Positions 31,114 to 31,145 of a stretch of DNA of 64,000 bases are shown here, piece by piece. Location: assembly GCA_949297055.1 (NCBI GenBank), contig CASFRI010000035.1, forward strand, positions 16,348-80,347, given 5' to 3'. Position 1 is the stretch's first letter. Each line of letters starts with the position of its first letter. Position numbers and translations under genes: made by a program. The notes beneath the pieces were generated by a model that did no database searches, was not told the DNA's origin, and worked only from the letters and a program-made list of their open reading frames with translations. This DNA is from an uncultured bacterium. GTDB lineage: Bacteria; Bacillota_I; Bacilli_A; RFN20; CAG-826.

Positions 31114-31145
31114 TTGACAAAATTAAACGGGGGGGGGGTATTATA
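31114..31145 (+). promoter_or_regulatory. Candidate promoter (TTGACA, then a 19-nt spacer containing G10, then TATTAT) for the 31184-36656 gene cluster
   Basis: ttgaca at 31114-31119, G10 at 31129-31138, tattat at 31139-31144. Confidence 0.45.
31129..31138. repeat. Homopolymeric G10 tract within the promoter spacer
   Basis: The only long G run in an AT-rich window. Confidence 0.9.

What the first reader, a model, noticed from the sequence alone, without database searches (positions are those of the whole stretch)
31114..31145. G10 homopolymer inside the -35/-10 spacer of the promoter driving a seven-gene cluster: candidate slipped-strand phase-variation switch
Seen in sequence: a run of ten G at 31129-31138 sits between a perfect TTGACA (31114-31119) and TATTAT (31139-31144). 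This gives a 19-nt spacer, which is suboptimal.

Gain or loss of G residues would bring the spacer to or from the optimal 17-18 nt. This is the only long G/C homopolymer in an AT-rich 64-kb window, so it is unlikely to be there by compositional chance.

Established knowledge: homopolymer length variation in promoter spacers is a classical ON/OFF or volume-control mechanism, as in the Mycoplasma vlp/vsa genes and in Neisseria and Haemophilus.
Basis: partly seen in the sequence, partly recalled or inferred. Interest (0 to 1): 0.65.

Follow-up and report, generated by a model that had tools for sequence, protein, structure and literature searches.

The report
Variable poly-G tract inside a promoter
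A run of 9 to 12 G bases sits between the two recognition boxes of a conserved promoter in an uncultured gut-type Bacilli lineage. Its length differs between otherwise identical strains, so it is a good candidate for a known kind of random on/off or dimmer switch, here in front of an uncharacterised membrane-protein operon.

Summary
This is the only G/C run of 6 or more in 64 kb.

- In 26 independent contigs of this lineage and its close relatives the tract is G9 (8), G10 (15), G11 (1) or G12 (2). A 27th contig (L105) has G12 with a T-to-G change in the -10 box.
- Contigs with identical gene-1 DNA differ in tract length in 5 of 7 groups.
- Both hexamers and the tract form a conserved island (83-89% identity) in an otherwise diverged intergenic region (27-51%).
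- In other Firmicutes the orthologous operon has a near-consensus promoter with a spacer of exactly 17 nt (21 hits against 1.5 expected).

The most likely reading is therefore a slipped-strand "volume control". G9 (18 nt) should be active, G10 weak, and G11-12 off.

Three things remain open. No expression or read-level data were available. G8 (17 nt) was never seen. The unit is six tightly linked genes followed by a terminator-like hairpin, with the seventh gene beyond it.

This is a new member of a known kind (porA, tp0126 and vlp type). The target is unusual: a five-gene SPFH/YidD-like membrane module conserved across phyla.

The parts
31110..31155 (+). Conserved promoter island (TCGTTGACAAA.T.AAC-Gn-TATTATATTT.TGA)
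   Evidence: Alignment A2. Identity between lineages is 0.83-0.89 here, against 0.27-0.51 upstream, 0.39-0.54 in the 5' UTR, and 0.75 at synonymous third positions of gene 1.
31114..31119 (+). -35 hexamer TTGACA (perfect consensus)
   Evidence: Invariant in every related contig that spans the promoter.
31120..31128 (+). Fixed 5' part of the spacer (AAATTAAAC; AATATGAAC in the second lineage)
   Evidence: It is always 9 nt, so spacer length equals 9 plus the G count.
31129..31138 (+). Poly-G tract, G10 in this window. This is the hypermutable element.
   Evidence: G9-G12 among 26 contigs. At least 7 independent length changes occurred among contigs with identical gene-1 DNA. It is the only indel in 3157 nt between near-identical strains.
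31139..31144 (+). -10 hexamer TATTAT (5 of 6)
   Evidence: Invariant except in L105, which has T to G at its first base.
31151..31152 (+). Predicted transcription start (G or A, 7-8 nt after the -10). This is an inference and has not been mapped.
   Evidence: Read from the sequence. The TGA downstream of the -10 is conserved.
31163..31168 (+). Shine-Dalgarno-like GAAAGG, 15 nt before the ATG
   Evidence: GAAAGGTC is conserved across lineages. The spacing is longer than usual.
31184..31777 (+). Gene 1: zinc-ribbon + TPR protein, 197 aa
   Evidence: Pfam. Relatives are 50-60% identical in many phyla.
31813..32457 (+). Gene 2: 214 aa with no family match. The model is a helical N-terminal part plus a beta-sandwich with a C-terminal helix.
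   Evidence: pLDDT 80. Only weak PH-domain-like fold matches, E >= 0.02.
32464..32937 (+). Gene 3: two predicted membrane helices + YidD-like domain
   Evidence: Pfam PF01809, E 8e-14; TIGR00278.
32957..34012 (+). Gene 4: SPFH (Band_7_1) + SHOCT protein
   Evidence: Pfam PF13421, E 1e-36; PF09851, E 2e-8.
34009..34698 (+). Gene 5: membrane protein with a C-terminal helical domain. It is the last gene of the module conserved across phyla.
34701..35216 (+). Gene 6: small multi-pass membrane protein, specific to this lineage
   Evidence: Only 58% identical in L016 and L017, where it lies about 560 nt beyond gene 5.
35236..35279 (+). Terminator-like hairpin (35236-35263) followed by a T-run
   Evidence: the 96-nt stretch containing it folds at -14.1 kcal/mol, z = -2.1. 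It starts 20 nt after the gene-6 stop.
35322..36656 (+). Gene 7: double zinc-ribbon + multi-pass membrane protein. It may be transcribed separately or by read-through.
   Evidence: It is not part of the conserved module.

Best explanation
The tract is a hypermutable homopolymer in the spacer of the housekeeping-sigma (sigma-A/sigma-70 type) promoter of the operon that starts at 31184. Slipped-strand mispairing during replication adds or removes G residues. Because the rest of the spacer is fixed at 9 nt, spacer length equals 9 plus the G count.

G8 would give the optimal 17 nt. G9 gives 18 nt and should be active. G10, as in this window, gives 19 nt and should be weak. G11 and G12 give 20-21 nt and should be essentially off. 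The result would be heritable, reversible, stochastic variation in expression, as an on/off or volume control.

The controlled unit is a six-gene operon, possibly seven. Its core is a five-gene module: a Zn-ribbon/TPR protein, an unknown PH-like protein, a YidD-like membrane protein, an SPFH-SHOCT protein, and a membrane protein.

Shown here: the anatomy, the conservation, and the length polymorphism. Inferred: the start site, the effect of length on transcription, reversibility, and adaptive value.
For: 1. Anatomy. A perfect -35 and a 5/6 -10 flank the tract. It is the only strong + strand promoter candidate in the 412-nt intergenic region. The upstream gene glnA is divergent, so no read-through can supply the operon.

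2. Internal calibration. The window's other perfect-TTGACA intergenic promoters use spacers of 17, 18 and 18 nt.

3. Polymorphism. The counts are G9 x8, G10 x15, G11 x1 and G12 x2 in 26 independent contigs from several projects and assemblers. These include long scaffolds: L010, 116 kb, G9; L016, 142 kb, G9; L011, 175 kb, G10; L007, 75 kb, G12.

4. Hypermutability. Five of 7 groups with identical 594-nt gene-1 DNA hold more than one tract length, which requires at least 7 independent changes. Between the window, L001 and L003, 3157 nt contain 4 SNPs and a single indel, which is +2 G. The T8, T7 and A7 runs are unchanged.

5. Selection. The island is 83-89% identical between lineages, against 27-51% and 39-54% for the flanks and 75% for synonymous sites. 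It is retained when the upstream DNA is replaced by an IS (L007) or by unrelated sequence (L017).

6. Orthologues. In 53 Firmicute-type loci where gene 1 is the first gene, promoters with 10 or more of 12 matches show a spacer of exactly 17 nt 21 times, against 1.5 expected. Many have the form TTGACAAA...TATAAT. None of the 78 distant loci has a G/C run of 8 or more upstream of gene 1.

7. No alternative role. No ORF of 20 aa or more crosses the tract, there is no Rfam match, and there is no RNA structure.

8. Precedent. Poly-G between -35 and -10 sets transcription in N. meningitidis porA and T. pallidum tp0126, with the optimum at 17 nt (PMC7864442).
Against: - No transcription data, no mapped start site, and no read-level data. 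Every length is an assembly consensus.
- The modal state (G10, 19 nt) is suboptimal, and the optimal G8 was not seen in 26 contigs. The lineage therefore sits one or two steps above the optimum, which needs explaining. Options are selection for low expression, an expansion bias, or 18 nt being the natural ON state.
- Some low-coverage contigs show trouble at the tract. L104 has scrambled sequence there, and L105 has T to G at the first -10 base. A few lengths may therefore be errors.
- The G run always supplies G at position -14, which is half of an extended -10 motif. That could blunt the dependence on spacer length (inference).
Confidence: 0.6

Rival explanations
1. The tract is hypermutable but incidental. 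It is simply a mutational hot spot, for example in a repair-poor, genome-reduced lineage, that has stretched a formerly 17-nt promoter. Its length changes are neutral or mildly harmful noise, not a selected switch. Expression of the operon is either tolerated at any level or is being lost.
For: - The modal spacer is 19 nt and G8 was never seen.
- Orthologues elsewhere have plain 17-nt spacers.
- L055 has a purine-rich 17-nt spacer containing G5, which looks like a possible precursor.
Against: - An uninterrupted run of 9-12 G is kept in all sub-lineages. This holds across divergence that has randomised the rest of the intergenic region and 25% of synonymous sites. Unselected long homopolymers are expected to be interrupted or to shrink.
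- Genes 1 to 5 stay intact and 82-97% identical at the protein level, so the operon is under purifying selection.
- No other G/C run of 6 or more exists in 64 kb.
Confidence: 0.2
2. The length differences are sequencing or assembly errors at a difficult G homopolymer. The true tract is fixed, for example at G10.
For: - Illumina chemistry is error-prone at long G runs (general knowledge).
- Several variant contigs have low coverage: L098 at 2.7x, L107 at 2.0x, and L104 at 2.6x with garbled sequence.
Against: - Different lengths occur on long scaffolds, which implies good coverage: 9 on 116 kb and 142 kb, 10 on 175 kb, and 12 on 75 kb.
- The variants come from several projects and assemblers.
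- A/T runs of 7-8 in the same contigs do not vary between near-identical strains.
Confidence: 0.07
3. The G run is primarily a recognition or structural element. It could be a binding site for a regulator or an alternative sigma factor, or the start region of a minus-strand promoter (TATAAT at 31145-31140, directly upstream of C10) heading towards glnA. Length variation would then be secondary.
For: - A perfect TATAAT lies on the minus strand directly before the C run.
- The AAC immediately before the tract is invariant.
Against: - The minus-strand -10 has no usable -35; the best is ATGACC at 21 nt, and it is not conserved in the second lineage.
- It lies 369 nt from the glnA start.
- The island is retained with the operon in L007 and L017, where glnA is no longer upstream.
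- No ECF-type CGT(A/C) -10 lies at the right distance from the AAC (checked by eye in the sequences).
- There is no structured RNA (z = 0.0).
Confidence: 0.08

Closest known systems
Neisseria meningitidis porA promoter (poly-G between -35 and -10)
   Same: A G homopolymer lies in the spacer of a sigma-70-type promoter. Slippage changes the spacing and therefore the transcription level, acting as a volume control. The discussion section of PMC7864442 describes this.
   Different: porA belongs to a Gram-negative pathogen and encodes a surface porin under immune selection. Here the host is an uncultured Bacilli lineage, the target is a cytoplasmic-membrane SPFH operon, and the observed spacers are 18-21 nt rather than centred on 17.
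Treponema pallidum tp0126 (OmpW homologue) poly-G promoter
   Same: The poly-G lies between -35 and -10. Transcription is optimal when the total spacing is 17 nt, and tract lengths vary within and between strains (PMC7864442 citing Giacani 2015).
   Different: The host is a spirochaete and the target is an outer-membrane protein. That case was shown experimentally; this one rests on sequence only.
Mycoplasma hyorhinis vlp genes (poly-A in the promoter spacer)
   Same: A homopolymer in the -35/-10 spacer gives ON/OFF switching in a Mycoplasma-related branch of the Bacilli (established knowledge, not re-read here). The nearest named RpoB relatives of this organism belong to RFN20-like, partly wall-less orders.
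   Different: The vlp tract is poly-A, and it controls a multigene family of surface lipoproteins. Here a single poly-G tract fronts one operon.
Streptococcus pyogenes M28 Spy1336/R28-Spy1337 virulence axis (genetic heterogeneity affecting transcript levels)
   Same: This is a Firmicute example. The paper's abstract speaks of a one-nucleotide indel and its title of an effect on gene transcript levels (PMC7098570; title and the start of the abstract seen). The paper also matched the search terms for homopolymer, promoter and slipped-strand.
   Different: Its tract composition and its position relative to the promoter were not checked here. The paper was not read beyond the listed title and the start of the abstract.
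Bacillus subtilis pspA-ydjGHI (samGHI) operon
   Same: The target operon contains a Band_7_1-type SPFH protein together with zinc-ribbon and membrane proteins. Papers: PMC8581546 and bioRxiv 10.64898/2026.02.06.704340; PMC11237479.
   Different: No PspA and no TPM-domain YdjH-like protein were found in this cluster. The B. subtilis operon belongs to the sigma-W regulon, according to the search hit PMC3498285 and my own knowledge. It is not controlled by a repeat tract.

Membership tests
Simple-sequence-repeat transcriptional phase variation (promoter-spacer homopolymer: porA / tp0126 / vlp type) | An uninterrupted homopolymer long enough to slip (about 8 or more units) | tested here: met
   G10 in the window; G9-G12 in relatives.
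Simple-sequence-repeat transcriptional phase variation (promoter-spacer homopolymer: porA / tp0126 / vlp type) | The tract lies between the -35 and -10 elements of the promoter that drives the downstream gene | tested here: met
   At motif level: TTGACA-9 nt-Gn-TATTAT. The island is conserved, it is the only strong candidate upstream of gene 1, and orthologues have TTGACA-17-TATAAT promoters. The start site itself was not mapped.
Simple-sequence-repeat transcriptional phase variation (promoter-spacer homopolymer: porA / tp0126 / vlp type) | Tract length is polymorphic between closely related strains, far above the background mutation rate | tested here: met
   Five of 7 groups with identical gene-1 DNA hold more than one length, requiring at least 7 changes. 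The tract is the only indel in 3157 nt between near-identical strains.
Simple-sequence-repeat transcriptional phase variation (promoter-spacer homopolymer: porA / tp0126 / vlp type) | Length heterogeneity within a clonal population, with reversible switching at high frequency | not testable with these tools
   Only assembly consensus sequences were available, not reads or cultures.
Simple-sequence-repeat transcriptional phase variation (promoter-spacer homopolymer: porA / tp0126 / vlp type) | Tract length changes the transcription of the downstream gene | not testable with these tools
   This needs reporter fusions, in-vitro transcription, or paired DNA and RNA data. It is expected from the known spacer-length dependence of sigma-70/sigma-A promoters.
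PspA-YdjGHI (SamGHI) membrane-stress operon | An SPFH protein of the Band_7_1 type | tested here: met
   Gene 4 matches PF13421 with E 1e-36.
PspA-YdjGHI (SamGHI) membrane-stress operon | A PspA/IM30 gene and a TPM-domain YdjH-like partner in the operon | tested here: not met
   No such Pfam or NCBIfam match in any of the seven proteins. The operon is therefore not filed as a member; it only shares the SPFH component.
Known anti-phage defence systems (PADLOC) | A match of any cluster protein to a defence-system model | tested here: not met
   Zero matches for all seven proteins at E <= 0.01.

The most novel reading that the evidence does not exclude
The tract is a contingency locus that has been kept by selection across species- to genus-level divergence in an uncultured, possibly wall-less, gut-type Bacilli lineage. 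It bet-hedges expression of a five-gene SPFH/YidD-like membrane module that occurs across bacterial phyla. That would imply the module carries a strong, context-dependent cost and benefit, for example in phage entry or defence, or in bacteriocin or membrane stress. The natural G9-G12 alleles would then be a ready-made genetic handle on the function of an otherwise uncharacterised, very widespread operon.
Probability: 0.3. Interest if true: 0.6.

Novelty: new member of a known kind. Interest (0 to 1): 0.45.

Why it matters
Promoter-spacer homopolymer switches are textbook in a few pathogens, where they control surface antigens. I did not find one described for uncultured commensal-type Bacilli.

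This candidate was recovered purely from public metagenome assemblies, and the evidence for its length polymorphism is clear. It also fronts a cytoplasmic-membrane SPFH operon rather than a surface antigen.

If confirmed, it would extend repeat-mediated bet-hedging to a new lineage and a new type of target. It would also flag the widely conserved five-gene module (genes 1 to 5) as something whose expression is costly in some conditions. That gives a concrete route to its function: compare natural ON and OFF alleles.

The mechanism itself would not surprise a specialist.

Tried and rejected
- **Minus-strand promoter towards glnA.** A perfect TATAAT lies directly before the C run. I rejected it because it has no conserved -35, it is 369 nt from glnA, and the island persists where glnA is absent.
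- **Translational phase variation.** No ORF of 20 aa or more crosses the tract on either strand.
- **RNA element.** Rfam found nothing at gathering thresholds. At E <= 1 it gave only two chance-level hits. The fold around the tract has z = 0.0.
- **ECF-sigma (sigma-W-like) promoter using the conserved AAC.** No CGT-type -10 lies at the right distance. This was checked by eye only.
- **JGI metagenome scan for the promoter pattern.** Zero hits, so it added no alleles.
- **Contig ends near the tract as evidence of within-sample heterogeneity.** The breaks coincide with strain SNPs upstream, not with the tract, so I did not use them.
- **Function of the operon.** PADLOC gave nothing. A PDB sequence search with gene 4 gave nothing. 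Relaxed Pfam searches for genes 2, 5 and 6 gave only noise. The gene-2 model (pLDDT 80) gave only weak PH-domain-like matches with E >= 0.02.
- **Poly-G in distant orthologous loci.** It is absent from all 78.

Full report
**Observation.** TTGACA lies at 31114-31119, followed by AAATTAAAC, then ten G at 31129-31138, then TATTAT at 31139-31144. The spacer is therefore 19 nt. The G10 is the only G or C run of six or more in the 64-kb window. The next longest are four runs of five, and about 0.006 G10 runs are expected from base composition.

The + strand carries only seven perfect TTGACA sites. Four of them sit in intergenic regions in promoter-like arrangements: at 8762 with a 17-nt spacer, at 52208 and 53268 with 18 nt, and this one. 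In the 412-nt intergenic region between the divergent glnA (29431-30771, minus strand) and gene 1 (31184), this is the only + strand candidate with 10 or more of 12 hexamer matches. Because glnA points away, no upstream transcript can supply the operon.

**Host.** The window is chromosomal. It holds the ribosomal-protein/secY/rpoA cluster, the rplA and rpoB genes, and an [FeFe] hydrogenase. The standard genetic code applies, because the ORFs are intact with table 11.

The two closest genomes in the species-representative collection are an "uncultured bacterium" bin and an "uncultured Bacilli bacterium" MAG. RpoB is 72% identical to Coprobacillus sp. CAG:826, to an Erysipelotrichaceae MAG, and to "Bacilli bacterium" MAGs. 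A second, unnamed lineage has RpoB at 87% identity. CAG-826 is a family of the order RFN20, a Mycoplasmatales-related and partly wall-less branch of the Bacilli (PMC10868615). The exact order of this organism was not determined. The canonical sigma-A promoter grammar (TTGACA, 17±1 nt, TATAAT) is the appropriate model, and the window's own promoters fit it.

**Does the tract vary?** I looked up the exact gene-1 protein and seven other variants from its 90% cluster in public assemblies, and I scanned the species-representative genomes. This gave 26 independent contigs with a readable tract. The counts are G9 x8, G10 x15, G11 x1 and G12 x2. One further contig, L105, has G12 together with a T-to-G change in the first base of the -10. 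One low-coverage contig, L104, has garbled sequence in place of the tract.

Different lengths occur on long scaffolds:
- G9 on 116 kb (L010) and 142 kb (L016)
- G10 on 175 kb (L011)
- G12 on 75 kb (L007)

The key result comes from groups of contigs whose 594-nt gene-1 DNA is identical. Their tract lengths are:
- {10, 10, 10, 12, 10}
- {12, 10, 10, 10, 9, 11}
- {10, 9, 9}
- {10, 9}
- {12*, 9, 9} (the asterisk marks L105)
- {9, 9}
- {10, 10, 10}

This requires at least seven independent length changes on branches with no substitution in gene 1. Over 3157 nt shared by the window, L001 and L003 there are four SNPs and one indel, which is two extra G in L003. The T8, T7 and A7 runs in the same stretch are unchanged. 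The tract behaves as a hypermutable site.

**Is it really in a promoter spacer?** Three lines of evidence support this.

First, aligning the intergenic regions of the sub-lineages shows an invariant island, TCGTTGACAAA.T.AAC-Gn-TATTATATTT.TGA, in otherwise diverged DNA. Identity to the window is 0.83-0.89 in the island. It is 0.27-0.51 upstream, 0.39-0.54 in the 5' UTR, and 0.75 at synonymous third positions of gene 1.

Second, the island travels with the operon. In L007 an IS element with an rve-type integrase replaces glnA. In L017 the upstream DNA is unrelated from about 20-45 nt before the -35. The island is intact in both.

Third, the gene-1 family and its neighbours form a module found in Clostridia, Bacteroidota, Spirochaetes and other phyla. 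In 53 Firmicute-type loci where gene 1 is the first gene, promoters with 10 or more of 12 matches within 200 nt upstream have a spacer of exactly 17 nt 21 times, against 1.5 expected from shuffles. Other spacer lengths are at or only modestly above the shuffle expectation, the largest being 8 hits at 20 nt, where several are shifted readings of a 17-nt promoter that share its -35 box. Many of these promoters read TTGACAAA...TATAAT.

So the orthologous operon is normally driven by a near-consensus 17-nt promoter. In this lineage the same hexamers are held 18-21 nt apart by the G run. None of the 78 distant loci has a G/C run of 8 or more upstream of gene 1.

**Other roles excluded.**
- No ORF of 20 aa or more crosses the tract.
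- Rfam finds nothing meaningful.
- The region has no unusual RNA fold; z = 0.0.
- A perfect TATAAT exists on the minus strand directly before the C run. It lacks a usable or conserved -35, lies 369 nt from glnA, and stays in place where glnA is gone.

**Mechanism (best explanation, confidence 0.6).** Slipped-strand mispairing changes the G count. The remainder of the spacer is fixed at 9 nt, so the spacer equals 9 plus the G count.

From the established spacer-length dependence of sigma-70/sigma-A promoters, and from the window's own 17-18-nt promoters, I predict the following:
- G8 would be optimal.
- G9 (18 nt) should be active.
- G10 (19 nt, this window) should be weak.
- G11-12 should be essentially off.

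The predicted start is G31151 or A31152. This gives a leader of about 33 nt with a conserved GAAAGG at 31163-31168.

The anatomy, conservation and polymorphism are shown. The start site, the transcriptional effect, reversibility and adaptive value are inferred.

Points against:
- The mode is G10, and G8 was never seen.
- All lengths are assembly consensus sequences.
- Low-coverage contigs show errors at the tract (L104, L105).
- The run always supplies a G at -14. This is half of an extended -10 motif and could soften the dependence on spacer length.

**What is switched.** Genes 1 to 6 (31184-35216) are separated by -4 to 35 nt. A hairpin with a T-run follows 20 nt after gene 6, at 35236-35279. 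Gene 7 starts after a 105-nt gap. "Seven-gene cluster" is therefore better read as six plus one.

The products are as follows:
- Gene 1: Zn-ribbon + TPR protein
- Gene 2: 214-aa protein with no family match; the model has pLDDT 80 and gives only weak PH-like fold matches
- Gene 3: membrane-anchored YidD-like protein
- Gene 4: Band_7_1 SPFH + SHOCT protein
- Genes 5 and 6: membrane proteins
- Gene 7: double-Zn-ribbon membrane protein

Only genes 1 to 5 are conserved across phyla, and their order is rotated in Bacteroidota to 2-3-4-5-1. The cluster shares the SPFH component with B. subtilis pspA-ydjGHI. It lacks PspA and a TPM-domain partner, so it is not a member of that operon family. No protein matches a known defence system.

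**Comparison and novelty.** The closest known systems are:
- the porA poly-G spacer of N. meningitidis;
- the tp0126 poly-G spacer of T. pallidum, with its optimum at 17 nt (PMC7864442);
- the poly-A spacer of the M. hyorhinis vlp genes (general knowledge).

The structural and population features of that class are met. The functional features could not be tested. This is a new member of a known kind. What is unusual is the host, an uncultured Bacilli lineage seen only in metagenomes. The persistence of the tract across sub-lineages with 12% gene-1 DNA divergence is also unusual, as is the target, a cytoplasmic-membrane SPFH module rather than a surface antigen.

**Rival explanations.**
- A hypermutable but unselected tract: 0.2.
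- Sequencing or assembly error: 0.07.
- A binding or structural element, or a minus-strand promoter: 0.08.

**Verdict.** The interest is moderate.

Noticed in passing
window 31184-34698; loci L018-L095: Genes 1 to 5 form a module: Zn-ribbon/TPR, unknown PH-like, YidD-like membrane protein, SPFH-SHOCT, and a membrane protein. It is conserved in Clostridia, Bacteroidota, Spirochaetes, Planctomycetes and other phyla. Gene 1 is 50-60% identical across phyla. The gene order is rotated to 2-3-4-5-1 in Bacteroidota. It has no family-level annotation or defence-system match, and I did not find it described in the papers searched.
   Followed up: partly
window 53268-53297: This is a perfect TTGACA-18-TATAAT promoter upstream of the heavy-metal P-type ATPase gene (53638-55770). 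Its spacer holds an inverted repeat, ATATGAA-N6-TTCATAT (53275-53281 and 53288-53294). It looks like a metal-sensor repressor operator. The first nine spacer bases, AATATGAAC, are identical to the fixed spacer part of the second-lineage poly-G promoter. That may be a coincidence.
   Followed up: no
L007 1-1200; L017 1-255: The DNA upstream of the promoter island has been replaced. In L007 an IS element with an rve-type integrase takes the place of glnA. In L017 the upstream sequence is unrelated. The region just upstream of the -35 therefore seems to be a rearrangement point, yet the promoter and tract are untouched.
   Followed up: partly
L055, about 1917-1945: The orthologous promoter in a Eubacteriales MAG reads TTGACA-AATGAAAGGGGGAAGAG-TATAAT. 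It has a 17-nt spacer with a purine-rich, G5-containing 3' part, and the same TTGACAAAT..GAA start as the second-lineage promoter. It may resemble the ancestral state from which the pure G run arose.
   Followed up: no
L105 about 530-560; L104 1-45: Two contigs show anomalies at the tract. L105 has G12 followed by ATTAT, so the first T of the -10 reads as G. L104 (2.6x coverage) has GGGTGTGTTG and unrelated sequence where the tract and -35 should be. These could be sequencing errors at the homopolymer or real lesions.
   Followed up: no
L002 and L005 (same sample, ERZ16268163); window about 30948-31087: The assembly of this sample breaks inside the intergenic region. The two contigs overlap by about 140 nt and differ at one base (ATGAATGT against ATGAATGG). 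This indicates at least two co-existing strains in that sample. The break is upstream of the tract, not at it.
   Followed up: no
window 31163-31186: The conserved Shine-Dalgarno-like GAAAGG lies 15 nt before the gene-1 ATG, or 12 nt in the second lineage. This is longer than the usual 5-10 nt. No alternative in-frame start lies between them.
   Followed up: no
window 10000-24000 and 56000-64000: Two stretches have 41-44% G+C against a background of about 31%. They are not foreign DNA. They hold the ribosomal-protein/secY/rpoA cluster and the rplA and rpoB genes.
   Followed up: yes
L016 7509-8072; L017 3836-4397: In the two closest reference genomes, gene 6 lies about 560 nt beyond gene 5, whereas the two genes abut in the window. 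Gene 6 is only 58% identical there. The distal part of the operon therefore varies between close relatives. What fills the extra stretch was not examined.
   Followed up: no
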